A program made the translations under genes and the position numbers. The notes below the pieces were generated by a model that was given only the letters and a program-made list of their open reading frames with translations, ran no database searches and was not told the origin of the DNA. From positions 1,504,001-1,568,000 of the forward strand of contig CAVYGN010000002.1 of assembly GCA_963768055.1 (NCBI GenBank): 64,000 nucleotides of DNA, in the 5' to 3' direction. Below, piece by piece: positions 18,276 through 64,000 of the stretch (positions within the stretch are counted from its first letter, which is position 1; each line of letters begins with the position of its first letter). Source of the stretch: an uncultured Spirochaetota bacterium. GTDB taxonomy: Bacteria; Spirochaetota; Brevinematia; Brevinematales; JAOACQ01.

Positions 18276-19844
18276 ATGTGTAATATAATTTCCATGTCCA
18301 GGCTATTATTCCCTGTATTTCTTCTGGCAATGTTTTACTCCTGCGGGAAGGAAGCAAAAAACACCGAAACCGTAATGAATACTAATTTTATAGATGAAAA
18401 TACAAGTACCCAGACAAACAAAGTGGTATATATCCTGCCCCTGGAAAACAAGGCCAATTCAAAATTTTATCACAATACTGCGCTTATCCAGGAGATATTA
18501 TTCAACTCTTTTTATTCTTTTATTCCTTACCTCCCGAGGGTAGATGTACCTGAAAAATCCGTTCTTCTCGGATTAAAAGCGGGGGACGCTGCAACGGTTT
18601 CAAACGAATATAAACCGGATTATATAGTTTACGGAAGCTATATACTCAAGGGAAGTAAATCAAACCCAAATGCCATAATAAGCATTCAGGTTATGAGCAG
18701 GACATCGGGGGAGTCTTTTTCGAATACATACATCGCGCCAACGGACATCGATCTATTCGACTCCGTCGACAGGATTATCGGGGAAATCGGCAGTTTTATT
18801 ATAAAAGAAAAAGCTCTTGTCGCTCATATCAATTTTGGTGATTTTAAAACGGGCTCTTCCGAGTATGAATTGAGGATAAACAACCGCTTGGTAGCACGGA
18901 TAACAAACAACGATTTTAAACTCGGTCTTAACGTACTGGCCGGGAAAAAATATCATGTGGAACTGGAAAGGCTGCGGGATTATCTAAAACTGATTGATGA
19001 TGATGTGATTTTAACCCCGGGCGATAGCACGAATTATTCTTACGCCAGTTTCTATTACATTTCGCCTGACATCGGTACATTGAAGTATGTTCCCGCCGGG
19101 ACCTTTCAGCGTGATTACGGGGTTAGCAACAAAAGCATGGTATCAGACTTCCATATAGGCGAATACGATATCACACGGGCTCAATTTTCTAATGTGATGG
19201 GGTTTGATCCAAGTGATGAAGATTATTCTACAGGGACCAATGATCCGGTACAAATGGTCAACTGGTACATGGCCCTTTCATTCTGCAACAAGCTGAGTAT
19301 GTTGGAAGGCCTGACTCCTGTGTATTCCATCAGAGGCAGTACCGATCCTTCCAAATGGGGAGCATTTTCATTGAAGAATAATACTTATATTGCCGCGAAC
19401 CGGTCTGCTAACGGATATCGTCTGCCTACGGAAATGGAATGGATGTGGGCGGCCATGGGGGCCGATACAGCAAATCCGGGGCGGGTTAATTACACAGGCT
19501 ATCAAAAGGCTTTTACAGGCAGCACGGGGGCTAATAATATTGACGGCTATGCCTGGACTACAAACAATAGTGGAAATAAAACTCATCCTGTAGGCACTAA
19601 ATTGCCTAACGAACTCGGACTGTACGACATAAATGGAAACGTGTGGCAGTGGTGCTGGGACTGGTATGCGGATTATCCCGGGGGCGCGGTGACTGACTAT
19701 GCCGGTGCAGCTTCGGGCTATTACCGCGTATTGCGCGGCGGCAGTTGGTTCGAGAATGTGTCCTGCGCCGCGGTTGCCTATCGCTACAGTAACAGCCCGT
19801 ACCTCAGTAGCTACGATCTCGGGTTCCGTGTCGTACGCCCCTGA
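18276..19844 (+). CDS. Lipoprotein with C-terminal FGE-sulfatase (SUMF1/CLec-fold) domain
   Basis: Signal peptide with FYSC; PVQMVNW, GYRLPTEMEW, PNELGLYDINGNVWQWCWDWY, RVLRGGSW..GFRVVRP. Confidence 0.9.
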   Translation: MCNIISMSRLLFPVFLLAMFYSCGKEAKNTETVMNTNFIDENTSTQTNKVVYILPLENKANSKFYHNTALIQEILFNSFYSFIPYLPRVDVPEKSVLLGLKAGDAATVSNEYKPDYIVYGSYILKGSKSNPNAIISIQVMSRTSGESFSNTYIAPTDIDLFDSVDRIIGEIGSFIIKEKALVAHINFGDFKTGSSEYELRINNRLVARITNNDFKLGLNVLAGKKYHVELERLRDYLKLIDDDVILTPGDSTNYSYASFYYISPDIGTLKYVPAGTFQRDYGVSNKSMVSDFHIGEYDITRAQFSNVMGFDPSDEDYSTGTNDPVQMVNWYMALSFCNKLSMLEGLTPVYSIRGSTDPSKWGAFSLKNNTYIAANRSANGYRLPTEMEWMWAAMGADTANPGRVNYTGYQKAFTGSTGANNIDGYAWTTNNSGNKTHPVGTKLPNELGLYDINGNVWQWCWDWYADYPGGAVTDYAGAASGYYRVLRGGSWFENVSCAAVAYRYSNSPYLSSYDLGFRVVRP

Positions 19845-20049
19845 GTTTATCTGCGGTTTCAGCTTCCGGCCATAAAGTTGTGTTTCTATCGCTTTTGCTT
19901 TATAATTGATCAACCTTATGACTTATCGGTTGTTTTTTTTAGCCATTCCCACAAGAATAGCAAACATCGCATTTATTGTAAAATTATTTTGTTTCAAGCT
20001 AAAATATCCTTTAATTCATGCTTAAAGCGTGAAAAACTATGGAGGTCAA

Positions 20050-29656: not shown

Positions 29657-31237
29657 TCAAAGCGCCAGGAATGAGATGGTGAATTTTGTCCCCTTTCCAT
29701 AGGTGCTTTCGATCTTAATATCGCCCCCATAGTAGGAGAGGGCGTTTTTTACCATGAAAAGACCGAGACCCGCCCCGCTTTCGTTACACTTGACCCCGTC
29801 AGTACCGCGGTAAAACTGCTGAAAAACCTTTCCCTTTTCATCGTCCTTTATGCCTACCCCTGAATCGGCAATATCGATTGTATAATAGTTATCCTTTACA
29901 CAGCCCTGAACGCAGATCGTCCCGTTAGGTTTATTGTATAAAATTGCGTTAGATAACAGCTCGTCAAATATAACCCTCAGTATCGAAGAATTTACAATGA
30001 AATTGTTAAATTCTCCGGGCATAATTATATCGATTTTCAGCTTTTTTTCCATTATCGGGATCTGATAGCCGGGAAGGACCGTTTTTTCAATAAAATCCTT
30101 AACATTGACGGTGTCTTTAAAAAGTTCGTTTACTGAAGATTCCAGTTCCCCGAATGAAAGGGTTTTTTGCACGATGTTCCCGATCCTTTCGATCCTGGTG
30201 CCGAGCTTTTCCAGGATGAGGCTGTTTTCCCCGCCTCCCGCTTTTCCGGATTTGATCTTTTCAAGTTCATCCTTCGCATCCATCACCGGCTTAATAAGGT
30301 GATCGGAAAATCCGTTGATAAACTCATTCTTAAAATTTACAAGCTTAAGGAGTTCCCGGTTTTTATTTTTTATTTTTTCGTAAAGAAGCGAATTATTAAT
30401 AGAAATCGCGGCCTGTCCGGCAAAGATTTCTGCGCTTGACAGGTCTGATGATTTTAGGGCCCCGTCTTTGGATATCGTATCGGCATATAGAACTCCGAGA
30501 AGATCGCCCTTGTACATCAGGGGTACGGCAAGACTTGATATGGAGATTTCACTTTTCTCCAGATTAAGCTTATTATTCACGGATAAAAAACTTTTTCTCG
30601 AGGTCGCACTGTCCAGGATAATCTTCTGGCAGAAGTCAAAATACATCCTGCCGAGTTTGCTGTTTTTTTCATTTATGAATATCTTGGGCGAAAGCTTGCT
30701 CTGCTCGCGAATAAAAAGCATGCCATGGTCGGCCTTTATCGTATCGGTCAGGCTTTTTACGATTTTATTTAGAAGGCAGTCGAGATCCAGGATCGAACCT
30801 ATGTCTTTATTTATCAGCAGTATTTTCCGGATAATTTCGTCTTTCTCGATAAGCTCTTTCATCGACAGCTGGCTTACATTATCCTGTGCTTCGAGAAGCT
30901 GAACCGCGTCCTTTTTTTCCATGATAGTCAGTTCCTGAAGGTTTTCATGGGCCTGGATCATCCTGTCCGCTTCGATCTTTTCCTCCCGCATCATATCCTG
31001 GACGATTTCCTGGGCCTGGATCACCCTGTCCGCCTCAACCCTTTCAACCCGCATTATATCCTGCACTATTTCCTGCGCCTGGAGCATGCGGTCCGCCTCG
31101 ATCAGTTCCTTATTGTACATATCCGACAGGTTCTTATAAGCATTTACCATTTTTTCGAGCCGGTTTATCTGCTCTTCTTTATCTTTTATTAAATCCGCCA
31201 GTTCTTTGATGTTTTTATCGTTAACCGAAGACGGCAT
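29657..31237 (-). CDS. Cytoplasmic GAF + histidine kinase-like protein with N-terminal 21-aa repeats
   Basis: Repeats EADR.IQAQE; GAF (LAVPL..GVLYAD..QAAISINN); ELLSNAILYN, DSGVGI, FQQFYRG, GAGLGL. Confidence 0.85.
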   Translation of the reverse strand: MPSSVNDKNIKELADLIKDKEEQINRLEKMVNAYKNLSDMYNKELIEADRMLQAQEIVQDIMRVERVEADRVIQAQEIVQDMMREEKIEADRMIQAHENLQELTIMEKKDAVQLLEAQDNVSQLSMKELIEKDEIIRKILLINKDIGSILDLDCLLNKIVKSLTDTIKADHGMLFIREQSKLSPKIFINEKNSKLGRMYFDFCQKIILDSATSRKSFLSVNNKLNLEKSEISISSLAVPLMYKGDLLGVLYADTISKDGALKSSDLSSAEIFAGQAAISINNSLLYEKIKNKNRELLKLVNFKNEFINGFSDHLIKPVMDAKDELEKIKSGKAGGGENSLILEKLGTRIERIGNIVQKTLSFGELESSVNELFKDTVNVKDFIEKTVLPGYQIPIMEKKLKIDIIMPGEFNNFIVNSSILRVIFDELLSNAILYNKPNGTICVQGCVKDNYYTIDIADSGVGIKDDEKGKVFQQFYRGTDGVKCNESGAGLGLFMVKNALSYYGGDIKIESTYGKGTKFTISFLAL

Positions 31238-42012: not shown

Positions 42013-43350
42013 ATGAAATCAATAAGCTCCCTTTTCGTTTTACTATTTATCAGCTTCGTTCTTGTTTCCTGTGCCGAACAGAACGCATTGACAAAAGAAA
42101 ATCAGGACAAGGAATCGGATACAAATGTAAATGCATCTTTCCTTGAAAAGCAGGAAACAGAAGCGGATATTACCGTCAAGCATAAGATACTTATAACGCC
42201 TTTTGAATATGTATCCACAAACTCGAAATACTCAAATCCCGAGATTTACAAAACGATTATTTTCTCTTCATTCTATAATCTGTTTTCAGTGCTTCCAACA
42301 ATCGACCTTCCTGATAAAAGCGAACTTTTAAGTTTGAATCCTTCCGATGATACTATTTCAAACCTGGCAAATAAGTATCAGTGCGATTTCATCGTATTCG
42401 GGGATTATGGCCTCAAAGGCGACAAATCAAAACCGAACGCAGTCATAAACCTTAAAATATGGAATAAATTATCGGGTGCTATTATGACAGACAGCATAAC
42501 CACACCCACCGACATCGACCTTTTCGATGCCATCGATTCCCTTATGTCAAAGATGGTCAGGACAATGCTGAATGAAGAAATGAAGATAGCATATCTTAAT
42601 TTCAATAATTTCGACACAGGCAACGAAAACATCGGTATATTTATCAATCACAAACTTGTTGCCGAGCCGATTTCAAATAATTTCAAACTCAGCATGAAAA
42701 TATTATCAGGTAAAAAATATAATGTCAGCATCAGAAGAATGTTCGACGGTAAACTTCTTTCGGGCGCTTTCACCAACTTGAAGCCCGGGGAAACGATGAA
42801 TTTCAGCGCCACGAATTACAGGGTGAATCTTATAAAAAATGGTGAATTTGATAAAGTAAGTGAAGCCTTATATCTCAAAAATACCGGCGACGCATTTGAT
42901 ATTATTCAAAAATTATTTGAGCCTGAAGATATAGGTAAATGGCATTTAATAACAATGGATAGTGCTGAAGCCGAGGTAAAAATTGAAAGCGGGAACTGTT
43001 ATATCAAGATAAAGAATTGCGGCCTTTATTGGAATTCCATGGTCTTTGATATTGCCTCTGTTAAAATTGAATATGGTAAAAATTATCGTCTTTCTTTTAT
43101 GGCAAAATCTACTGATATCCGAGAAATTGGATTAAAAATTGGCAGGCATGGGAACGGTTGGTATAATTATATTGGTATTAATTATCGAGATCGGCCTAAA
43201 TATTTTCCCATAAATACAGAAATGAAGGAATACAATTGTATATTCAAGATGAATTATTTAACAGATGAAAAAGGATATTTAGAAATTTTCCTTCATGATT
43301 CCACAAATGATGTTTGGATAAAAAATGTAATGGTCGAAGAACTGGATTAA
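42013..43350 (+). CDS. Lipoprotein with C-terminal CBM4/9-like carbohydrate-binding domain; paralog of 18276-19844
   Basis: Lipobox LVSC; N-terminal half aligns with the 18276 ORF (PTDIDLFD, GKKY.V); C-terminus NLIKNGEF..GKNYRLSFMAKS..DVWIKNV. Confidence 0.78.
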   Translation: MKSISSLFVLLFISFVLVSCAEQNALTKENQDKESDTNVNASFLEKQETEADITVKHKILITPFEYVSTNSKYSNPEIYKTIIFSSFYNLFSVLPTIDLPDKSELLSLNPSDDTISNLANKYQCDFIVFGDYGLKGDKSKPNAVINLKIWNKLSGAIMTDSITTPTDIDLFDAIDSLMSKMVRTMLNEEMKIAYLNFNNFDTGNENIGIFINHKLVAEPISNNFKLSMKILSGKKYNVSIRRMFDGKLLSGAFTNLKPGETMNFSATNYRVNLIKNGEFDKVSEALYLKNTGDAFDIIQKLFEPEDIGKWHLITMDSAEAEVKIESGNCYIKIKNCGLYWNSMVFDIASVKIEYGKNYRLSFMAKSTDIREIGLKIGRHGNGWYNYIGINYRDRPKYFPINTEMKEYNCIFKMNYLTDEKGYLEIFLHDSTNDVWIKNVMVEELD

Positions 43351-49100: not shown

Positions 49101-49508
49101 TTATTGGACGAAAACAGAATATGCAATGCATACCCCGGAAGAATCAAGAACCTGCTCCGTCGTCCCGTTCCAGTAACAGGCTTTGACGTTATGATCACAT
49201 CCCGCCGTATACACATTGCCGTTATAGACAAAAATAGATTGTGCGGACCCTCCTGAAGAATCGAGGACCTGCTCAGTCGTCCCGTTCCAGTAACAGGCCT
49301 TGCTGTTATGATCGTAACCCGCCGTATATATACTGCCGTTATAGACAAAAATGGATTGCGCCTTGCCCCCGGACGCATCAAGGACATGCTCGGTCGTCCC
49401 GATCCAGTAGCAGGCGCTGTTGTTATGATCGTAACCCGCCGTATATATACTGCCGTTATAGACAAAAATAGATTGTGCGTATCCTCCTGAAGAATCGAGG
49501 ACCTGCTC
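49101..49508 (-). pseudogene. Headless 3' fragment of a beta-propeller repeat protein (117-bp / 39-aa tandem repeats)
   Basis: Period is exactly 117 bp (49138, 49255, 49372, 49489). The minus frame reads EQVLDSSGGYAQSIFVYNGSIYTAGYDHNNSACYWIGTT-like x3 then SVFVQ*; no start codon upstream. Confidence 0.8.
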
Positions 49509-50213: not shown

Positions 50214-50921
50214 CTATTTTGCTCCGGCTTTTTTCAAAAGTTTTATGACAGTCGGGTCTGTTGCTAACATCAAAGCCGTCTTACCATCTTTATTTATATT
50301 TACATCGGCCCCCGCACCAATCAGTGCTTTGACTGTATATGCGCTCAAGCCTTCTTCGGCTGAGTACATTAAAGCCGTCTTACCATCTTTATCCGCTATA
50401 TTGACATTAGCTCCAGCCTTGATCAATGATTTAATAACGTTCTTATTGACCTTGGAACTTGCTATTATTAAAGCTGTCCTGCCATATTCATCAATTATGT
50501 TTAAATCAGCCCCTGCTTCGATCAATTCTTTAACTATTTATTTATAATTAGACCATTTACAGGCGGCCGCCTTCATTAAAGCAGTTTCGCCGTGTTCATT
50601 CACCACATTGACATTGAAACCGCAACTTATCATAGCATAAACCGCAGTCTCATTACCTGTGCTGGCCTCATACACCAAATCCGTAGTCCATCCAGCTTGT
50701 TTTAGCATCAGGGCACATTCAGCCATAATTTTACGATCTTTAAGAGAAAGCAATTGGTTATTTAAATTTGTGGAAGTTTCAATTTTAATATCATTGGATC
50801 CACATATAGAACATTTTGATATCATAAAGCTTGTTTTAGTTCCCGGTGAATACCCGAGTGATTTTGCAGCCTCTTCAGTATCCATAACAGTTCCACAAGA
50901 ATTACACTTATAGATTGCCAT
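50214..50921 (-). pseudogene. Zn-ribbon + ankyrin-repeat gene split by one in-frame TAA (50538-50540)
   Basis: CNSC..CSIC, then ankyrin repeats; reads ..KWSNYK*IVKELIEAGADLN.. in the same frame. Confidence 0.8.
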
Positions 50922-51485: not shown

Positions 51486-54461
51486 CTAAACAATATTCCC
51501 AAAATTTAAAGGCCTCAAATCGTCGGCTTCGGTTTCTTTTTGAACGTTGAAGTTGTAATCTCCGAGAAAATTAATATGCTCCCAACCAAGTGGGCTTATA
51601 TTCTGTAAGAGATCTTCCATCAGAGTGCCATTAGCTTTAAGATGATTGGCGGCTTTTTGCAAGTATTTGGTATTCCATACGCTGATCGCGTTTATAATGA
51701 TGCTCAAAGCGCTTGCCCGCTGCAGTTGGTCCTGAAGTTCCCTTTCCCTGAACACACCATGCTTTCCGATAAATATGCCTTCCCTTGCAAGGGCATTGAC
51801 GGCCTCACCCTTATTCAGGCCCTTCTGTATACGTCTCCGAAAACGCTTATCAGTGATAAAGTCCAGAATAAAGATGGTTTTCTCGATCCGTCCCATTTCC
51901 CTCAGGGCTGCCGCGAGGGTATTCTGCCTTGAATATGAGCCAAGCTTGGACATTATCGAAGAACCGGTCACCTTGCCTGTTCTTATGGAATGAGCAAGGC
52001 GTAGCACGTCATCGTAATTTTCCCGTATCAGTTTGAGGTTTATTTTTCCCTTAATGATATGCTGTATATTTCGGTAGTTGACCGGATCTTCCAGCGAGTA
52101 CAGAACAAGTTCCGATATGCCCCTGATTCTCGGTGCGAATCTCAGGCCAAGCAGATGGCATAAACCGAACACTTGGTCAGTATATCCGGCTGTGTCCGTG
52201 TAATGCTCGCAAATATTAAGGTCAGTCTCATGAAAGAAAGCCCCGTCAATGACATAAAGGGCGTCCCTGGAGTTTGTGGGGATAACAGTGGAATAATATG
52301 AGGAATACTGATCGCTGATGAAGCGGTACATGGTTGTTCCTTTTTGTGATCCATAATGCGGGTTATGTTCGGCATTCAACGCCGATACTCCGACCTGGAC
52401 CCTCATTCCATCGGAAGACGACGTGGTACCGTCACCCCAATAAGCAGATAAGGCCTGTTTATGCTGATAATTCACAAGAACGGCCTGGGCTTTTATCATT
52501 GCTTCGTCATACATTCGCCATTGTGCCATGTTGGCCATCTGCCAGTAAGAGATACCCGGTGTAGATTCCGCCATCTTGTACAAACCGATATTGGTCCCCA
52601 TGGCCATCAGGGTAGCCATTAGAACAGGTATTTCTTCATTCCTTGCAAGATTTCCCGTGGAAGCGTGAATGAATTTCCTGTCGAAGTTAGTCCAGCCCGC
52701 GACTTCTTGCAGCAGCTCTGGCAATTTTATATGGGGCAGCATGCCGTAAAGCCTTTGGCTCAATACTTCGGCCTCTTCCGGAGTGTCTTTGTCAAGCTTT
52801 TCAACATGAATACCGTCCGTGTCGATGTTAACGCCTTCCAGGCTGCCAAGATTTCTTGAAAGCCGTTCCAGGCGGTTATTCAATGATTCCGACCTTTCCC
52901 TTAAATAGTAGTTATAATCGGTGCTGACCGCCAATTGGGTATTGGAGGTCTCTTTTGCTTTTATCCAACCCTCTTTTGATACAAGGTATTCATCAAAGTT
53001 CCTGTAATTTCTGCTTCCCTTCACGGCAATGTCCCCGGCCCTGGTCCTGTTCCTCAATTCAGTCAAAACAGCCATCTCGTAATAATGCCTGTTTATCTGA
53101 CCTCCCGGTTCAAAAATGAATTTGTCCCACCTGTTGGTAATAAAGCCCATGGGAGCGTTTGGAGGCATTTTTCGTGCCCCGGTCTCGTTCATTTCTTTAA
53201 TGAGCTTCAGGGCGTCAAGCAACGGCTTCATGGAGGTATTGGTTGAAGAAAATTCAAGGCACTTGACCAAAACCGGCGTGTATTTCCGGAGATGGTTGTA
53301 CCAGACGTCAAGTAAATCCAGGTAGTCATAGTTCAACGGCCTGACAAGCTTTCTGGCTTCCTCCACAGACTCGACAATCATCTCCCAGGGCATAACGGAT
53401 TCTATGGTATCATAGGGGTCAAGACCTTCATTCCTGGCCTTGATCAATGCGGCGCCCAGGTCAGCAAACTGAATAATCTTCTCATTCAGGGATTTGCCAT
53501 TCTGTTTCTGGATTTCATCCTGTTCCTTTCTGCCTTTGGAAAACAAAGTGTTGATCTGCCTGTCATGGATCTCGACCGCGAGGTCAACAAGGCTTTGACT
53601 TAAACCATGAAGGTATACCCCAAGAATAGCATGCCGTTTGTCTGCATCGAAACGACGGAATGAACGAGGTTCATATTTTGACCCCAGCCTTGTCAATTGC
53701 CGCAATCTGTTGGGGTGTATCCCGGCAATATCAATATTGAGGTCCAGTTCTCGTATTTTTTCAAGCCTTTCGACAACCTCAAGAAAGGCTTTCGGGGACG
53801 ATTTTCCGGGATCCTCTTTAAGCCAGCCAAGAACCGTCTTGGCTGCTTCATCTGGCGATTCAATCAGTTTATCCATTTTCTGTTTTTGTAGAGGGGTGAG
53901 AGCATCATTTATACTCTTGATAACTTGCTCATCAGCCATTATGCGGACCTCGTTGACTATTCTTTCTATTGTGGTGATCCCGGGAAGAATGACCAGGTTC
54001 CTCTTTAATTTATTGATGGATTCCCGTATAAGATGAATGATGTTGTCGTTTTCCATAGCGAAAGGAAGGAGATGTATTGAAAGCATCTCACCGTCTTCTT
54101 CGGAATATTGCCTGTATCCATATGTTGTCTGCAATTCTTCAAGATGTTCGTATTTTGTCATCCTTCTCTGGAAATACTTGGAAAAAATTTCTGGGTTAAC
54201 ATGAAGCTGTTCCGCTATATAAGAAAGTACCATATCAGGAATCTCATTGTGAGATCCAAGTGGCCATCCGGGATTCCTAAGCATGCAAAGCTGAACGGCA
54301 AAACCAAGACGGTTATAGTCTCTTCTGTGAAGGCTGATGATCCCGATGTCCTTATCAGTCAGAGTATAATGCCTGGCTATCTCAAAATCGCTTATATCTT
54401 CAGGAACATTGGTAAATTCAAGCCTTTGTTCTTCAGTCAGCAATATCTCAGGAACCGCCAT
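51486..54461 (-). CDS. tnpA: Tn3 family transposase
   Basis: 991 aa; NRLGFAVQL, SSSDG, HYTDTAGYTD, LNKGEAVNALAR, ISPLGWEHINFLGDY. Confidence 0.97.
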   Translation of the reverse strand: MAVPEILLTEEQRLEFTNVPEDISDFEIARHYTLTDKDIGIISLHRRDYNRLGFAVQLCMLRNPGWPLGSHNEIPDMVLSYIAEQLHVNPEIFSKYFQRRMTKYEHLEELQTTYGYRQYSEEDGEMLSIHLLPFAMENDNIIHLIRESINKLKRNLVILPGITTIERIVNEVRIMADEQVIKSINDALTPLQKQKMDKLIESPDEAAKTVLGWLKEDPGKSSPKAFLEVVERLEKIRELDLNIDIAGIHPNRLRQLTRLGSKYEPRSFRRFDADKRHAILGVYLHGLSQSLVDLAVEIHDRQINTLFSKGRKEQDEIQKQNGKSLNEKIIQFADLGAALIKARNEGLDPYDTIESVMPWEMIVESVEEARKLVRPLNYDYLDLLDVWYNHLRKYTPVLVKCLEFSSTNTSMKPLLDALKLIKEMNETGARKMPPNAPMGFITNRWDKFIFEPGGQINRHYYEMAVLTELRNRTRAGDIAVKGSRNYRNFDEYLVSKEGWIKAKETSNTQLAVSTDYNYYLRERSESLNNRLERLSRNLGSLEGVNIDTDGIHVEKLDKDTPEEAEVLSQRLYGMLPHIKLPELLQEVAGWTNFDRKFIHASTGNLARNEEIPVLMATLMAMGTNIGLYKMAESTPGISYWQMANMAQWRMYDEAMIKAQAVLVNYQHKQALSAYWGDGTTSSSDGMRVQVGVSALNAEHNPHYGSQKGTTMYRFISDQYSSYYSTVIPTNSRDALYVIDGAFFHETDLNICEHYTDTAGYTDQVFGLCHLLGLRFAPRIRGISELVLYSLEDPVNYRNIQHIIKGKINLKLIRENYDDVLRLAHSIRTGKVTGSSIMSKLGSYSRQNTLAAALREMGRIEKTIFILDFITDKRFRRRIQKGLNKGEAVNALAREGIFIGKHGVFRERELQDQLQRASALSIIINAISVWNTKYLQKAANHLKANGTLMEDLLQNISPLGWEHINFLGDYNFNVQKETEADDLRPLNFGNIV

Positions 54462-59153: not shown

Positions 59154-59658
<505 letters not shown>

Positions 59659-59949: not shown

Positions 59950-60981
59950 TTACCTCCAGATAAAAGGGGGATATTCATCTAGATCACCCCTGATATAACG
60001 GGCTAATAAAAGCGCCTGTGTATGAAACAACAACCCTATATGCATAGTTTCCCCGATAAATGGGTGTTCAAGGCACTCCTGTTTTCTTTTTTGATATGTT
60101 TCGAGAACTGTTTTTCTGGCTTTTTCATTCATCAGTACCGTACCGGAATCGGAAATTTCAAAATCTTTTGACTCAATCTGTCTGAGATTGATAAGAGAAA
60201 GCATTAATCTATCGGCAATTACAGGACGGAATTCTTCCATTAAATCAAGAGAGAGCGACAAACGTCCCGGCCTGTCCCGGTGCAAAAAACCTACAGCCGG
60301 GTCTAATCCAGTAGTTTCCAGCGCTGAACGCATATCATGGTAAAGTAATGTATACAAGAATGAAAGAATGCAATTAACCCGATCCATCGGGGGTCTTCTA
60401 TTACGGTCTTTCATAAAAAAGTCCTCTTTTTGGTTTAAAATCAAATGATCGAGCACCCCAAAATAGATCTTCGCTGTGTCACCCTCGATTCCTCGCATCA
60501 ATTCAAGGTCATTACATTTCATAACCTTATTAACAGATCTTTCTATCTGCTTCGATGCTTCTTCTAATGCTTTCTGATCAACCCTTTCAGAATGGTCCCG
60601 GAGGGCGCGTTCCACAACTGTACGGCAATTCATAAACTTTCCGATCAGAACATTACGTGCAATTAAGACTGAAAATTCCATAGAGTCGGACATCCTGTAT
60701 TGCGCTTTTCTCAGAAGCACATTGCCAGCAACCGGTCCCTGAACTCGGCAGAGAAATTTTCCATATTCTGTCATAAAACTAATGCTTATTCCTTTATTTG
60801 CGCAATGCCCAAGAAGGAAAGGGCTGACACGCACATTTCCGAAACAAACAATGCTGTTCAGATTTATAGCCGGGATTTTTAACAGTTCTTTTTTATTCAG
60901 TGAAACGACTATAGTTTCCCGTTCTTTATGTACATAGACTTTTTGTGTAGTTATATAAAGGGTATTCAATATGCGTTTCAT
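59950..60981 (-). CDS. cas1: Type I-C Cas1
   Basis: LNTLYITTQ, GNVLLRKAQY, RGIEG, RRPP.D..N..LSFLY, GFLHRDRPGR.SLSLDLMEEFR. Confidence 0.97.
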   Translation of the reverse strand: MKRILNTLYITTQKVYVHKERETIVVSLNKKELLKIPAINLNSIVCFGNVRVSPFLLGHCANKGISISFMTEYGKFLCRVQGPVAGNVLLRKAQYRMSDSMEFSVLIARNVLIGKFMNCRTVVERALRDHSERVDQKALEEASKQIERSVNKVMKCNDLELMRGIEGDTAKIYFGVLDHLILNQKEDFFMKDRNRRPPMDRVNCILSFLYTLLYHDMRSALETTGLDPAVGFLHRDRPGRLSLSLDLMEEFRPVIADRLMLSLINLRQIESKDFEISDSGTVLMNEKARKTVLETYQKRKQECLEHPFIGETMHIGLLFHTQALLLARYIRGDLDEYPPFIWR

Positions 60982-61628
60982 TATAGTTCCCCGAGTGGAG
61001 ATGAAGAGGAACCCTGTAATATCATCTTCTCAATATAATTTTTGACCCGCTGTTTTTTCCCGGTTATTTTCGGCTGACACTCATCGTAAAGCGAACAGGA
61101 ATCACATTTCTTAGAATACTCCGGCGGTGGAGTCTTTCCAGATTCCAGCATTTTCCGTACTTTTTGTGCGATCTCTTCCGTTCGATTACGTAAGGTTGGG
61201 GTTAATTCCACTTTCAAACGCTTTCTTGTTTTAAAATAGTAGATAAATCCTTCCGGTATCGAAATAGACAGCATTTCTTCCAGACAAAGCGCTTGAGCGC
61301 AAAGTTGTATGGTGTCCATCTCCTTCATTTTGGGCCTGCCTCGCTTATATTCTATGATACGGGAAATACCCGGAGAAAGCGTTTCAAGGACATCAACCTT
61401 GCCGGTAAGCCCCAGCCGGGATGAGTACAGCGGCAGTCCGAACGTAAGTTTTTTGTCTTTCCGGCTTTCGCTTTTACCGCTATGCGCCCTTTCATGTAAA
61501 ATTCTGCCTTCAGCCGTCAGGCCGTTTTCTTGCCATAGCTGTTCGATATGGATCAGCGCACACTGACGGGGACAGAAAACATAGTGCTGGAGAGCTGAAA
61601 TGAAGATGTAGTCAGATTCAGGGTACAT
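60981..61628 (-). CDS. cas4: Cas4 nuclease
   Basis: ISALQHYVFCPRQCALIHIE, GKVD, EYKRG, QLCAQALCLEEM, CDSCSL..C. Confidence 0.96.
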   Translation of the reverse strand: MYPESDYIFISALQHYVFCPRQCALIHIEQLWQENGLTAEGRILHERAHSGKSESRKDKKLTFGLPLYSSRLGLTGKVDVLETLSPGISRIIEYKRGRPKMKEMDTIQLCAQALCLEEMLSISIPEGFIYYFKTRKRLKVELTPTLRNRTEEIAQKVRKMLESGKTPPPEYSKKCDSCSLYDECQPKITGKKQRVKNYIEKMILQGSSSSPLGEL

Positions 61629-61633
61629 AAGAG

Positions 61634-62497
61634 TTATAACATTTCTGTTATTTTAACCCCTAAGGGTATTCCATCTTTCTTGATTGAAACGGAGTAATCT
61701 TTCCAATCACGCGGTAAATCTGCTTTCTTTTCAATCAAAACTCGTTCAAATAATTCTCCTGAACGAGCATTCCCGAGATGATTCGAATGTATAAAAACAA
61801 TCAGTTTTCTGGGGTTCATTTCACCACGTGCAGCAGCTCGGTCATGCTCAAAAGCGTTAAGCAGCGATTCCCAGAGCAGTGCAAGATCGTCCTCTGAAAA
61901 CCCTGTTTTAACAGCATCAACGGCAGAGACAAAGCCATGCATCCTGTAAAGAGCATAAGGAACAGTTGACTTTCTGCCGAAAGTTGATGCATGTTCCCTG
62001 TGCTCCTGAGCTTTTGCTTCTTTTTCTGTTGTAACAGCACAGCGAGTAATTGAATGTTCGGCTTGGTAAATTCTGTCTTCTGATCGGGAAAAAGTAAACT
62101 GGATCGGTCCGCGTAGTGTTCCTGATGGTTTATCGCCAACTGCTAAAACTGCACCAAACGCTCGAATATCATAATATTTTTCACAAAGTTTTTTCTGGCG
62201 ATCTTTAATAACATCTTGTTTCTCTTTTTTTTCTTCATTTTCAACTTCGGTATCTGCTATATCTTTACCTAGAATATTTCCTTGTCTAATAAATATATCA
62301 TAAGGTGATTTCTGTTCATGTTTCAATGCAACATAATTTCTGACCTTACGTTTTATGCAAACATCCGTTACCAGCCCCTCCTGATTTTCGGCGTCAGCGC
62401 GCGGCAGATTGGCCTGATCAGGGTCTCCGTTCGGATTGCCGTCTTTTACATCATAAAGATAAACAAAATCATACCGGTTTTTTATAATCTCACTCAT
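61634..62497 (-). CDS. cas7: Type I-C Cas7 (Csd2)
   Basis: DVKDGNPNGDPD..NLPR, TDVCIKRKVRNY, DIRAFGAV, GRK..VPYALY, HDRAAARG. Confidence 0.96.
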   Translation of the reverse strand: MSEIIKNRYDFVYLYDVKDGNPNGDPDQANLPRADAENQEGLVTDVCIKRKVRNYVALKHEQKSPYDIFIRQGNILGKDIADTEVENEEKKEKQDVIKDRQKKLCEKYYDIRAFGAVLAVGDKPSGTLRGPIQFTFSRSEDRIYQAEHSITRCAVTTEKEAKAQEHREHASTFGRKSTVPYALYRMHGFVSAVDAVKTGFSEDDLALLWESLLNAFEHDRAAARGEMNPRKLIVFIHSNHLGNARSGELFERVLIEKKADLPRDWKDYSVSIKKDGIPLGVKITEML

Positions 62498-62907
62498 TTT
62501 ATTTCCTCCTCAATGGCTTCTTTTAATTCCTTCTTTTCTTTGGCTTTTTCAAAAATTGCCTGTCTCTGGTGGTAATATCCGATGGCAAAAAAACCCTGAT
62601 CTTCTAAACTGAATATTGTCGGTAATTCATTAAGCTTTGCAACCAACTCGCATAATTCCTGATCAAAAATTACTGCAAGTCCGGCTTTTTCACCCTTAAG
62701 CTTGGTCAAATGATTCTGTGTTTGTTTCATAATTCTTCCAAATGTCGAAGAAGGGGTTGTGGATGCCGATGAAAAATATCGTTCCCTGATTCCTGCATTA
62801 ATCTCTTTACCTAACGCCGCACGCTGAATGCTTTCCATTACTGAAAATATTTGTCCCCAAACATAAGCTGTTTTAGTGTTTCCCGGGTCTAACTTTACCT
62901 GAATCAT
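62494..62907 (-). CDS. cas11: Probable internally translated Cas11c small subunit
   Basis: In-frame ATG at 62907 preceded at 7 nt by AGGAGG (62915-62920); 137-aa product. Confidence 0.75.
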   Translation of the reverse strand: MIQVKLDPGNTKTAYVWGQIFSVMESIQRAALGKEINAGIRERYFSSASTTPSSTFGRIMKQTQNHLTKLKGEKAGLAVIFDQELCELVAKLNELPTIFSLEDQGFFAIGYYHQRQAIFEKAKEKKELKEAIEEEIK

Positions 62908-64000
62908 AGGATAACCTCCTTTATTATTTCTATTTAATATCAATTTGATTAAAGCCGCGCGTTCCGGTGTTATGCCTTTATCATCTACCTGCGTCCGCTT
63001 TATTACTTCAGTCATAATCCAAAGGGGCGGAACGGAGTTTTTAAGTGCTGTATTCCAAAGATGAGAAGCAATTCTGGGAAGTGATGTATCATTATCAGCC
63101 TTATCGTTTTGACCACTTCTGGCCATTTCATAGAGACGAGAATAATGCACGACTGTATTCTTTAATTCCCAATCATATCTTACTATTTCAATATCTTTAA
63201 ACCATGAAGCAATTGACTTTTGGAAATCCTGCAAGCTTACCTCTATCCAGTCACGAACGGCAATCCTGGCCGCTGCACCAGAAAGGGTACAGGAATAAAA
63301 CCGGTCATCAGTTTCCAGATATTTACCAATACCAATCTCACCGGATGCTACAGAATTTATTAGGTTGGCGACTTCTCCTGTATTAGGCCGGTCAAGCAAA
63401 TCCATTTCGGATAGTTCTACATTATCTCTAGTCCAGAAAATCATCACGGTATCAAATCCTAATTTCTTGCGATTAGTATAACGAAAATCCTCTTTTACTT
63501 TCCTTTTTTTATCTTCAGTCTTAATTTTTTTTCCATTCGCCAATAAATAATTTAAACCTTCAACGTAAGTCCTGGCACAATTTGAACATATCGATGAGTT
63601 GTTATTTCCTTCTAATTCATAAGACTCAAAAGCATTAGCATTGTAAGATACAAGAGCACAGCCAGCTTTTTGGCCATCTGTAACATTTTTAATCATACCA
63701 TGTGGTTCATCTTCGACCGGATAATTTGACTTCCCACATAAGGAACAAACTTTTAAAGATGCGGACATTTTTTTGTTTTGATCATTTTCATAATTTTCAA
63801 TGATTTTTTTATAAACCGTAGGCTCTTCATGTACCCTGTTTCCCTTATTAATTAATCTAAAAGCAATATTCTCTGAGCGTTGTTTTTCTTCAATCTGTTT
63901 TTCATATAGTGATAAAGCTTTATCCAAACCGTTTGCCCGGTTTTCATTATAGAATGACAGAACAGATTTCAATTCAATTAACTCTTTGTAATCATTTATC
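62494..64000 (-). CDS. cas8c: Type I-C Cas8c (Csd1), 5' end beyond the window
   Basis: CSLCG, LVSYNANAFESY, AARIAVR, AY..G.IF..ME.IQ, QG.FAIGYYHQ; frame open to the window edge. Confidence 0.92.
   Translation of the reverse strand, partial: INDYKELIELKSVLSFYNENRANGLDKALSLYEKQIEEKQRSENIAFRLINKGNRVHEEPTVYKKIIENYENDQNKKMSASLKVCSLCGKSNYPVEDEPHGMIKNVTDGQKAGCALVSYNANAFESYELEGNNNSSICSNCARTYVEGLNYLLANGKKIKTEDKKRKVKEDFRYTNRKKLGFDTVMIFWTRDNVELSEMDLLDRPNTGEVANLINSVASGEIGIGKYLETDDRFYSCTLSGAAARIAVRDWIEVSLQDFQKSIASWFKDIEIVRYDWELKNTVVHYSRLYEMARSGQNDKADNDTSLPRIASHLWNTALKNSVPPLWIMTEVIKRTQVDDKGITPERAALIKLILNRNNKGGYPMIQVKLDPGNTKTAYVWGQIFSVMESIQRAALGKEINAGIRERYFSSASTTPSSTFGRIMKQTQNHLTKLKGEKAGLAVIFDQELCELVAKLNELPTIFSLEDQGFFAIGYYHQRQAIFEKAKEKKELKEAIEEEIK

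What the first reader, a model, noticed from the sequence alone, without database searches (positions are those of the whole stretch)
19719..19861. FGE/CLec lipoprotein whose 3' end looks like a DGR variable region, with no template or RT in the window
Seen: the last 41 codons (YYRVLRGGSWFENVSCAAVAYRYSNSPYLSSYDLGFRVVRP) are GC-rich and only two end in A. Non-scaffold positions are mostly NNC/NNT codons (TAT, TAC, TTC, TCC, TGC, AAC, AGC, CTC, GAT), the products expected from adenine mutagenesis of AAC/AAT. Known: RGGSW..GFRV CLec-fold C-termini are classic diversity-generating retroelement targets, including the Treponema denticola lipoprotein TvpA. Inference: this is a remote target diversified in trans by a DGR elsewhere in the genome. 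GAG and GTG codons fit less well.
Basis: partly seen in the sequence, partly recalled or inferred. Interest (0 to 1): 0.8.

Follow-up and report, generated by a model that had tools for sequence, protein, structure and literature searches.

The report
Orphaned, frozen DGR-type lectin tip
The GC-rich end of this spirochaete surface-lipoprotein gene looks exactly like a target of a retroelement hypermutation system, but the genome has no such retroelement or template and the segment is unchanged between strains, so it is a frozen leftover of a kind already described in Treponema.

Summary
ORF 18276-19844 (+) encodes a 522-aa lipoprotein. Its last 41 codons have GC 0.59 against a genome GC of 0.415, and only 2 end in A. 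Its C-domain is most like Treponema denticola TvpA (PDB 2y3c, E 4.6e-43).

The claim of trans diversification by a DGR elsewhere in the genome is not supported.
- The 3.69-Mb, two-contig assembly has no RVT_1 hit, no DGR-RT hit and no bAvd hit.
- It has no template-like copy by BLASTN or by an adenine-tolerant scan.
- In the 11 other genomes of its family, the segment matches only coding paralogues. No RT there has the DGR motif.
- Contigs of a roughly 98%-identical strain differ from the last 54 codons by four synonymous changes only.

The segment still carries a DGR imprint. It is in exact register with a true template found in a homologous locus, and 12 of the 13 template-AAY positions hold NNY codons. 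Its family shares this imprint.

Best reading: an orphaned, frozen DGR-written binding tip on a species-specific domain fusion. This class is known from T. denticola (PMC4891356), and earlier reports of this scan describe it on other DNA. Interest is low.

The parts
18276..19844 (+). Whole gene: 522-aa lipoprotein made of an N-terminal anchor/scaffold module plus a C-terminal TvpA-like FGE/CLec domain. It is inserted between lpxD and the fdx-korABC genes.
   Evidence: ORF. Pfam FGE-sulfatase, aa 276-521, E 1.5e-37. Neighbours identified. In 4 of 4 sister-species genomes lpxD is followed directly by fdx-korA, with no such gene between.
18276..18350 (+). Signal peptide with a lipobox-like ...FYSC; the Cys is residue 23 (18342-18344).
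   Evidence: Read from the translation. The Cys column is shared by the paralogues that reach the N-terminus in alignment A3. No lipoprotein predictor was run.
18351..19079 (+). N-module: an alpha/beta domain followed by a beta-sandwich. It is shared with many paralogues that carry other C-terminal domains.
   Evidence: Paralogue hits to residues ~1-260, at least 11 further places in the own genome. Alignment A3. AlphaFold model with mean pLDDT 82.8. Foldseek hits to FlgT, TolB N-domain, PelC, GNA1162 and LpoB at E 8e-6 to 1e-3, but with low TM of 0.2-0.48. No Pfam family at E<=1.
19101..19838 (+). FGE-sulfatase / C-type-lectin-fold domain of the TvpA type. It is not a catalytic FGE.
   Evidence: Pfam PF03781. 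Best solved relative is 2y3c_A, T. denticola variable protein 1, E 4.6e-43, whereas true FGEs score E ~1e-13. Only one of the two Cys positions of the aligned FGE is Cys here.
19734..19841 (+). VR-like segment of 36 codons, RGGSW...GFRVVRP. It is in exact register with true DGR templates and holds 13 putative formerly mutable codons.
   Evidence: Same 36-codon register as the L135 TR. 12 of the 13 AAY positions of that TR are NNY here. This is the most variable part of the paralogue alignment A1. Mismatch profile against non-cognate TRs equals that of true VRs.
19629..19844 (+). GC-rich, A-poor block: GC 0.59, A 0.16-0.17.

Best explanation
The last 36 codons are a DGR-type variable region by descent. 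The binding face of a TvpA-like C-type-lectin-fold domain was written by adenine mutagenesis of AAY template codons at some time in this domain's ancestry. It is now orphaned and frozen, because this genome has neither the reverse transcriptase, nor the accessory gene, nor the template.

The domain has been fused to a lineage-specific lipoprotein anchor module and inserted between lpxD and the kor operon in this species only. The protein most likely works as a fixed-specificity ligand-binding lipoprotein of the cell envelope, and its tip is now under purifying selection.

Shown: the domain identity; the absence of RT, TR and Avd in the assembly; conservation between strains; the species-specific position; and the codon imprint.

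Inferred: that the imprint was made by a DGR; surface exposure; and ligand binding.
For: (1) Best solved homologue is the DGR variable protein TvpA (2y3c, E 4.6e-43), far ahead of true FGEs at ~1e-13.

(2) The pipeline finds real DGRs among the homologues. In L123, 24 of 24 VR/TR mismatches fall at TR adenines, with bAvd and an RT alongside. In L135, 19 of 21 fall at TR adenines.

(3) This segment has the same 36-codon register as the L135 TR, and 12 of 13 AAY positions are NNY codons. Against the two non-cognate TRs it mismatches at 15/29 and 25/39 of the adenines. At non-adenines it mismatches at 22/73 and 21/63, and 15 and 16 of those are third codon positions. True VRs compared with each other's TRs give 27/39 with 18/63 and 16/29 with 26/73.

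(4) Family imprint. 54 other loci are in register and have no adenine-type TR within the flank held. In them, codons for residues with a free third base end in C/T in 301 of 354 cases (0.85) at the 13 positions. The share is 266/448 (0.59) at scaffold positions and 0.54 in the rest of the ORFs. K, E, Q, M and W make up 38 of 702 residues (5.4%). Over these 54 loci plus the 5 family paralogues, Ser at the 13 positions is AGY in 81 of 108 cases, against 44% elsewhere in those ORFs.

(5) No machinery is found. RVT_1 gives 0 hits. The L123 DGR-RT gives 0 hits at E<=10. bAvd gives 0 hits. BLASTN of 19640-19860 finds only itself, with the next hit at E 2.47 and <=25 nt. In the adenine-tolerant ungapped scan the listed best non-self places have at most 43 exact matches in a 126-nt window and 41 in a 101-nt window; the best tolerant score, 99 of 126, had 40 exact.

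(6) The segment is frozen. Contigs of a roughly 98%-identical strain in two runs show 14 synonymous and 12 non-synonymous differences over the gene, but 4 and 0 in the last 54 codons. A contig from another study is identical over 19675-19846.

(7) Precedent. T. denticola isolates without RT or TR keep 'target genes' whose VRs differ from TRs mostly at adenines (PMC4891356, passages read).
Against: The one-gene imprint is statistically thin. Most NNY codons here are forced by Tyr, Asn, Asp, Phe and Cys, and only 4 codons have a free third base. GAG (Glu) at a template-AAY position cannot come from AAY. Binding sites rich in Tyr, Ser, Asn and Asp could also arise by ordinary selection.

No cognate TR was found anywhere: not in the own genome, not in the family, and not as an exact 3' scaffold in metagenome or viral contigs. 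DGR authorship is therefore inferred, not shown.

The family imprint was measured only on the 62 of 89 sequences that fit a fixed 24-residue register, and the positions were taken from one TR.

Some of the 54 'TR-less' loci may be live remote targets rather than fossils.

The assembly is 94.75% complete by marker count. The bAvd control rang above its cut-off in none of the 14 control genomes, so that null is weak.
Confidence: 0.62

Rival explanations
1. This is an ordinary CLec/FGE-family ligand-binding loop that no DGR ever wrote. The GC-rich, NNY-rich composition would reflect conserved scaffold motifs (RGGSW, GFRVVRP), a Tyr/Ser/Asn/Asp-rich binding site favoured by selection, and possibly a higher-GC donor of the domain.
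For: The C-domain as a whole is GC-richer than the N-module: 0.41-0.61 against 0.34-0.46 per ~120 nt. The nearest homologues outside the family include several from MAGs labelled Myxococcota or Deltaproteobacteria. The other three FGE paralogues of this genome also rise in GC towards the 3' end, to 0.46-0.60. True FGEs share the RGGS...GFR frame. Most NNY codons here are forced by amino-acid identity.
Against: Selection on amino acids does not explain the third-base bias at residues with a free third base. That bias is 0.85 at the 13 positions against 0.59 at adjacent scaffold positions in 54 loci. Nor does it explain AGY over TCN for Ser, 81 of 108 against 44%. The positions showing the bias are exactly the AAY codons of a real TR in the same register. 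The best solved relative is a DGR variable protein, not an enzyme.
Confidence: 0.22
2. This is a live remote target. A DGR on a plasmid, prophage or other part missing from the assembly, or on a co-resident phage, still rewrites this segment in trans at low frequency.
For: Remote targets more than 100 kb from the RT are documented for the Treponema DGR (PMC5758913, passages). The assembly is rated 94.75% complete. Contigs drop rare variants. Locus L135 shows a TR with no RT on its 5.9-kb contig, so the parts can lie apart.
Against: No RT, Avd or TR is found in 3.69 Mb on two contigs. No DGR-type RT is found in the 4 other genomes of the genus, where all RTs carry a group II maturase domain. 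There are zero non-synonymous differences in the last 54 codons between strains that differ by 12 non-synonymous changes elsewhere in the gene. The segment is identical in a second study. The exact 3' scaffold is absent from viral and metagenome contig collections. No hairpin follows the stop codon (z -0.7).
Confidence: 0.06
3. It is a catalytic formylglycine-generating enzyme or an EgtB/PvdO-type enzyme, as automatic annotation of the family suggests.
For: Pfam FGE-sulfatase hit. Database relatives are named 'SUMF1/EgtB/PvdO family nonheme iron enzyme' or 'formylglycine-generating enzyme'.
Against: In the alignment to FGE 6muj/2q17, only one of the two Cys of the ...C-x4-C... stretch is Cys here; the other is Glu. 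All NCBIfam enzyme models score far below their cut-offs, for example EgtB 44 against 360 bits and PvdO 33 against 500. The protein is a lipoprotein with an envelope anchor module.
Confidence: 0.03

Closest known systems
[quoted passage not shown] 2016, PMC4891356; passages read)
   Same: A TvpA-type FGE/CLec lipoprotein gene whose 3' end has VR anatomy, in a genome with neither RT nor TR. Those authors read such genes as remnants of DGR gain and loss.
   Different: There, the cognate TR is known from sister isolates and the VRs differ from it mostly at adenines. Here, no cognate TR exists in any genome searched and no genome of the genus has a DGR-type RT. The domain also sits on a different, lineage-specific N-terminal module at a species-specific position.
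TvpA, Treponema denticola variable protein 1 (PDB 2y3c)
   Same: Best solved homologue (E 4.6e-43 over residues 22-266 of the C-domain). It has the same RVLRGGSW...DLGFR frame around the variable stretch.
   Different: From recall, TvpA is served by an adjacent TR and RT and is hypervariable. This gene has neither, and it is invariant between strains.
Complete DGR cassettes with homologous targets found here: L123 (Cytophagia MAG) and L135 (Spirochaetia MAG)
   Same: Homologous CLec domain at 42-46% identity and the same 36-codon VR register.
   Different: Both have a TR with adenine-specific mismatches, 24/24 and 19/21. L123 also has bAvd and an RT with the GNLTSQ motif. The window's genome has none of these.
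Formylglycine-generating enzyme (SUMF1; e.g. 6muj, 2q17, 1y1e)
   Same: Same Pfam family and fold frame.
   Different: Similarity is much weaker, E ~1e-13 to 1e-9. The Cys pair is not kept. The protein is a lipoprotein with a binding-type architecture.

Membership tests
Active DGR target (variable protein served by a DGR) | C-terminal CLec/FGE-type domain with the variable stretch at its 3' end | tested here: met
   PF03781, aa 276-521. TvpA is the best solved hit. The register is identical to true TRs.
Active DGR target (variable protein served by a DGR) | Cognate template repeat: a near-copy differing almost only at its adenines | tested here: not met
   Own genome: BLASTN at E<=10 finds only itself, and the adenine-tolerant scan finds nothing. 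Family of 12 genomes: all 20 non-self DNA matches lie inside FGE-paralogue coding regions. The exact 3' scaffold is absent from metagenome and viral contigs.
Active DGR target (variable protein served by a DGR) | DGR-type reverse transcriptase in the genome | tested here: not met
   RVT_1: 0 hits at E<=0.01, with controls ringing in 3 of 14 genomes. L123 DGR-RT query: 0 hits at E<=10. The assembly is 94.75% complete.
Active DGR target (variable protein served by a DGR) | Accessory gene (Avd or other) | tested here: inconclusive
   bAvd PF22296 gives 0 hits at E<=1. The control genomes gave no hit above the cut-off, so the null is weak. HRDC-type accessories were not searched.
Active DGR target (variable protein served by a DGR) | Hypervariation of the VR within or between populations | tested here: not met
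   4 synonymous and 0 non-synonymous differences in the last 54 codons against a roughly 98%-identical strain. The segment is identical in a second study. These were contigs only, so rare variants would not be seen.
Active DGR target (variable protein served by a DGR) | IMH-type 3' end, or a hairpin downstream of the VR | tested here: inconclusive
   No stable hairpin in 19815-19935 (DNA fold z -0.70). An IMH cannot be defined without a TR.
Orphan / remnant DGR target (as in DGR-less T. denticola isolates) | VR anatomy with an AAY-mutagenesis imprint, in a genome lacking RT and TR | tested here: met
   12 of 13 NNY codons at TR-AAY positions. The cross-TR profile matches that of true VRs. RT and TR are absent. 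The published class is described in PMC4891356.
Orphan / remnant DGR target (as in DGR-less T. denticola isolates) | A cognate TR known from close relatives, so that the VR can be shown to differ from it at adenines | tested here: not met
   No TR is found in the 11 other genomes of the family. Only one of the 35 genomes of the order has a DGR-like RT, in another family.
Catalytic FGE / EgtB / PvdO enzymes | Catalytic Cys pair (FGE), or scores above the equivalog cut-offs | tested here: not met
   One of the two Cys positions is Glu. NCBIfam EgtB, SenA, PvdO, OvoA and GldK all score far below their cut-offs.

The most novel reading that the evidence does not exclude
DGRs may act as transient generators of permanent binding repertoires.

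This genus keeps 1-8 TvpA-like lectin domains per genome without any DGR-type RT.

The same adenine-mutagenesis codon imprint is seen in 54 loci from MAGs of several phyla that have no adenine-type TR within the flank held.

Here one such frozen tip has been redeployed by fusion to an anchor module. In paralogues that module carries a CBM_4_9 domain or what look like ankyrin repeats.

If this is general, much of this family of more than 3,000 members would be DGR fossils, recognisable by codon signature alone.
Probability: 0.35. Interest if true: 0.5.

Novelty: new member of a known kind. Interest (0 to 1): 0.25.

Why it matters
For this locus the result is mainly a correction. A strong DGR-like signature is not evidence of a working DGR, and annotation pipelines or readers that flag VR-like tails should check for an RT and a TR before calling a target.

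There is modest wider value in three points.
- A codon-level imprint marks DGR-written tips even when the element is gone. It consists of NNY and AGY-Ser at template-AAY positions and depletion of K, E, Q, M and W.
- The imprint is common in this large family.
- Such tips can be fixed, kept under purifying selection and shuffled onto new anchor modules.

This bears on how DGRs contribute to long-term evolution of surface-protein repertoires.

Tried and rejected
- TR search by BLASTN in the own genome and by an adenine-tolerant ungapped scan of four sub-windows on both strands. Only A-rich low-complexity places scored.

- Exact 3' scaffold (24 nt and 20 nt) in metagenome contigs and viral contigs: 0 hits each.

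- I considered a long degenerate IUPAC version of the segment for collection scans and did not send it, because it would be an altered sequence.

- Four of the six loci with a second VR-like copy (L065, L116, L120, L125) are not adenine-type TRs. L116, L120 and L125 have mismatches spread over all bases, so I read them as duplicated paralogues; L065 aligned only with gaps at 68% and was not tallied.

- Hairpin downstream of the stop codon: none.

- Mixed N-domain and C-domain alignment A2: the N-domain rows were misaligned (13-19% identity against 26-70% in A3), so it was discarded and not folded.

- Rows dropped before the syn/nonsyn count: 19427, 19430 (two alleles) and 19454 come from short contigs with 6-11 other letters in 62-80 nt, which I take to be other paralogues or organisms. 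19853, 19862, 19863 and 19908 lie after the stop codon.

- Joints at 19268/19398 and 19671/19723 and the loose ends around 19634-19748 come from low-identity contigs. I read them as other FGE genes in the metagenomes, not as variants of this gene. This was not proven.

- Cluster look-up: the protein is alone in its 90% cluster, so no natural variants could be compared that way.

- Runs X3 and X4 may be the source sample of the assembly, so their identity is weak support.
Full report
**What is there**

The finding lies at the 3' end of ORF 18276-19844 (+), which encodes 522 aa. The window is G000:C2:1504001-1568000 of a 3.69-Mb assembly in two contigs, with GC 0.414-0.416 and marker completeness 94.75%.

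The protein begins with a signal peptide ending ...FYSC. This Cys aligns with a Cys in the paralogues that reach the N-terminus. Pfam finds one family, FGE-sulfatase, at residues 276-521 with E 1.5e-37.

**The observation**

The last 41 codons have GC 0.593 and A 0.154. Their third letters are C23, T9, G7 and A2. Of 89,970 sampled 123-nt windows of this genome, 664 (0.74%) are as GC-rich. Only 189 (0.21%) are also as poor in A or T. So the compositional anomaly is real. It extends from about 19629 to the stop codon.

**Identity of the domain**

Against all solved structures, the C-domain is most like Treponema denticola variable protein 1 (TvpA, 2y3c). The E-value is 4.6e-43 over residues 22-266, with the same RVLRGGSW...DLGFR frame. 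True formylglycine-generating enzymes follow at E ~1e-13 to 1e-9.

In the alignment to FGE, one of the two Cys of its C-x4-C stretch is Glu here. NCBIfam enzyme models (EgtB, SenA, PvdO, OvoA) score far below their cut-offs. This is a TvpA-type binding domain, not an FGE enzyme.

**Is there a DGR?**

No part of one was found in the own genome.
- BLASTN of 19640-19860 at E<=10 returns only the segment itself. The next hits are <=25 nt at E 2.47.
- An ungapped scan counted any genomic A as a match, for four sub-windows on both strands. The listed best non-self places have at most 43 exact matches in a 126-nt window and 41 in a 101-nt window.
- RVT_1 gives no hit at E<=0.01, while it rings in 3 of 14 control genomes.
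- A bona fide DGR RT taken from locus L123 gives no hit at E<=10.
- bAvd gives no hit at E<=1, but its control is weak.

The relatives give the same answer.
- In the 12 genomes of the family, RVT_1 hits occur in 3.
- Of 8 distinct RT ORFs, 5 carry the group II intron maturase domain. These include all four from the window's genus.
- The other 3, all in genome G005, carry RVT_1 only. None of the 8 has the GxxxSQ motif. That motif is a recalled DGR hallmark, and it is present here in the controls L123 and L136.
- A DNA search of 19600-19860 over the family gives 20 non-self matches. All lie inside coding FGE paralogues listed.
- In the order (35 genomes), only one genome, in another family, has a DGR-like RT.

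**Population evidence**

Eight public runs from two studies (peat and freshwater sediment) hold parts of the gene. Contigs of four runs were laid on it.

Two peat runs carry a strain about 98% identical. I dropped rows from low-identity contigs and rows after the stop codon; these are listed under Tried and rejected. The remaining 26 differences within the gene are 14 synonymous and 12 non-synonymous. In the last 54 codons there are 4 differences, all synonymous third-position changes: 19682, 19742, 19769 and 19802.

A contig from the other study is identical over 19675-19846, though it may come from the source sample. The VR-like tip is therefore the best conserved part of the protein, the opposite of DGR hypervariation. 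Contigs cannot show rare variants.

**Why it still looks like a VR**

I aligned 11 C-domains from the family (A1). I then fetched 78 related loci from species-representative genomes. They are 42-61% identical and their records are labelled Myxococcota, Riflebacteria, Spirochaetes, Cloacimonadota and others.

I scanned each locus for a second copy of its own 3' end and found six. Two are true TR/VR pairs.
- L123: 24 of 24 mismatches fall at TR adenines. bAvd, an RT and the TR lie 6 kb upstream of the target.
- L135: 19 of 21 mismatches fall at TR adenines. The TR lies right after the stop codon, and no RT is on the 5.9-kb contig.

Three of the other four (L116, L120, L125) have mismatches spread over all bases, so I read them as duplicated paralogues. 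L065 aligned only with gaps at 68% and was not tallied.

The window's segment has exactly the 36-codon register of the L135 TR. At that TR's 13 AAY codons it has TTC GAG AAT TGC TAC AGT AAC AGC TAC CTC AGC TAC GAT, which is 12 of 13 NNY. All of these but Glu are residues reachable from AAY.

Compared with the two non-cognate TRs, the segment mismatches as follows.

| Comparison | Mismatches at TR adenines | Mismatches at other bases |
|---|---|---|
| Window segment vs L135 TR | 15/29 | 22/73 (15 at third codon positions) |
| Window segment vs L123 TR | 25/39 | 21/63 (16 at third codon positions) |
| L135 VR vs L123 TR | 27/39 | 18/63 |
| L123 VR vs L135 TR | 16/29 | 26/73 |

The window's segment behaves just as the two true VRs do against each other's TRs.

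**Family-wide imprint**

62 of 89 sequences fit the same 24-residue register. 54 of them are loci without an adenine-type TR in the flank held. In these 54 loci:
- Codons of residues with a free third base end in C/T in 301 of 354 cases (0.85) at the 13 positions.
- The share is 266 of 448 (0.59) at scaffold positions and 0.54 in the rest of the ORFs.
- K, E, Q, M and W make up 38 of 702 residues at the 13 positions.

Counted over these 54 loci plus the 5 family paralogues, Ser at the 13 positions is AGY in 81 of 108 cases, against 44% elsewhere in those ORFs. The five family paralogues in register give 25 of 30 (0.83) C/T-ending codons at the 13 positions.

Amino-acid selection alone does not predict a third-base bias at just these positions, whereas adenine mutagenesis of AAY does. 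For the window's gene alone the free-third-base count is only 4 of 4. The argument therefore rests on the family and on the register.

**Architecture and origin of the gene**

Residues ~1-260 form a module with at least 11 further copies in this genome.
- Its model has mean pLDDT 82.8 and shows an alpha/beta domain followed by a beta-sandwich.
- It resembles FlgT, the TolB N-domain, PelC, GNA1162 and LpoB at E 8e-6 to 1e-3, with low TM-scores.
- A paralogue in the window (42013-43350) joins this module to a CBM_4_9 domain.
- The closest copy in a sister species (68% identity) continues into what look by eye like ankyrin repeats.
- Others end in a region that ends in Phe.

No full-length homologue of the module-plus-CLec fusion was seen in the family. 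The protein is alone in its 90% cluster. The nearest C-domain in a 5.8-billion-protein collection is 64% identical, within a family of at least 3,492 members at E<=1e-30.

The gene lies between lpxD and a ferredoxin/2-oxoacid:ferredoxin oxidoreductase operon, with a DNA methylase and a PBP1 further out. In 4 of 4 sister-species genomes lpxD is followed directly by fdx-korA, and no homologue of this gene lies between. It is thus a species-specific fusion and insertion in a housekeeping context, with no phage or mobile genes beside it.

**Mechanism proposed**

This is an envelope lipoprotein whose CLec domain presents a binding face. That face was once randomised by a DGR in the domain's ancestry, then fixed, and is now kept by purifying selection.
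- Shown: domain identity, absence of the DGR parts in the assembly, conservation between strains, the codon imprint, and the species-specific position.
- Inferred: DGR authorship, surface exposure and ligand binding.

I put 0.62 on this reading. I put 0.22 on 'never DGR-written', 0.06 on a live trans target served by an unassembled element, and 0.03 on an enzyme.

**Comparison with what is known**

Nimkulrat et al. 2016 (PMC4891356; passages read) describe T. denticola isolates with neither RT nor TR. These still hold lipoprotein 'target genes' whose VRs differ from the TRs of sister isolates mostly at adenines, and the authors read them as remnants.

Wu et al. 2018 (PMC5758913; passages read) document remote targets of the Treponema DGR.

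The present case belongs to the remnant class. It differs in that no cognate TR is known from any relative, in the new anchor module, and in the lineage. Earlier reports of this scan describe orphaned DGR tips on other genomes several times. Hence it is a new member of a known kind, and interest is low.

Noticed in passing
window 42013-43350 (+), and G000 places listed: A family of at least 11 further exported or lipoprotein paralogues in this genome shares the ~230-aa N-module, which has no Pfam family and a TolB-N/PelC/FlgT-like model. The module is joined to different C-terminal parts: CBM_4_9, the TvpA-like CLec domain, an ankyrin-looking region in a sister species, or a region ending in Phe that may be a beta-barrel. 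It looks like a modular anchor for swapped binding domains.
   Followed up: partly
window 59185-59480 and 59950-63999 (-): CRISPR array of 5 identical 32-nt repeats at 66-nt spacing. Beside it lie cas1, cas4, cas7 and csd1/cas8c, a type I-C-like set. The last gene runs off the window.
   Followed up: partly
window 51486-54461 (-): A 991-aa Tn3-family transposase, with DDE_Tnp_Tn3 at E 1.4e-145. Direct-repeat families lie nearby at 49133-49508 (117-nt period) and 50258-50615.
   Followed up: no
window 30928-31116: Three tandem 63-nt direct repeats at 67-79% identity to the first copy. These were not examined.
   Followed up: no
L135:2693-3056: In a Spirochaetia MAG contig, a true adenine-type TR lies directly after the target's stop codon, with 19 of 21 mismatches at TR adenines. 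No RT is on the 5.9-kb contig, and the next gene is unrelated and on the other strand. This may be a TR kept beside its target with the RT elsewhere.
   Followed up: partly
L136 (G019:C354:11571-15275): This is the only DGR-like RT found in the 35 genomes of the order: 344 aa, with the GSVLSQ motif and RVT_1 at E 1.9e-17. It lies in another family of small genomes, next to an ORF with a Tyr-rich C-terminus. No TR search was done.
   Followed up: no
G000:C1:1466013-1466738 and G000:C1:666199-666906: Two N-module paralogue copies, each with 1 TGA and 1 TAA inside the match. They are probably pseudogenes.
   Followed up: no
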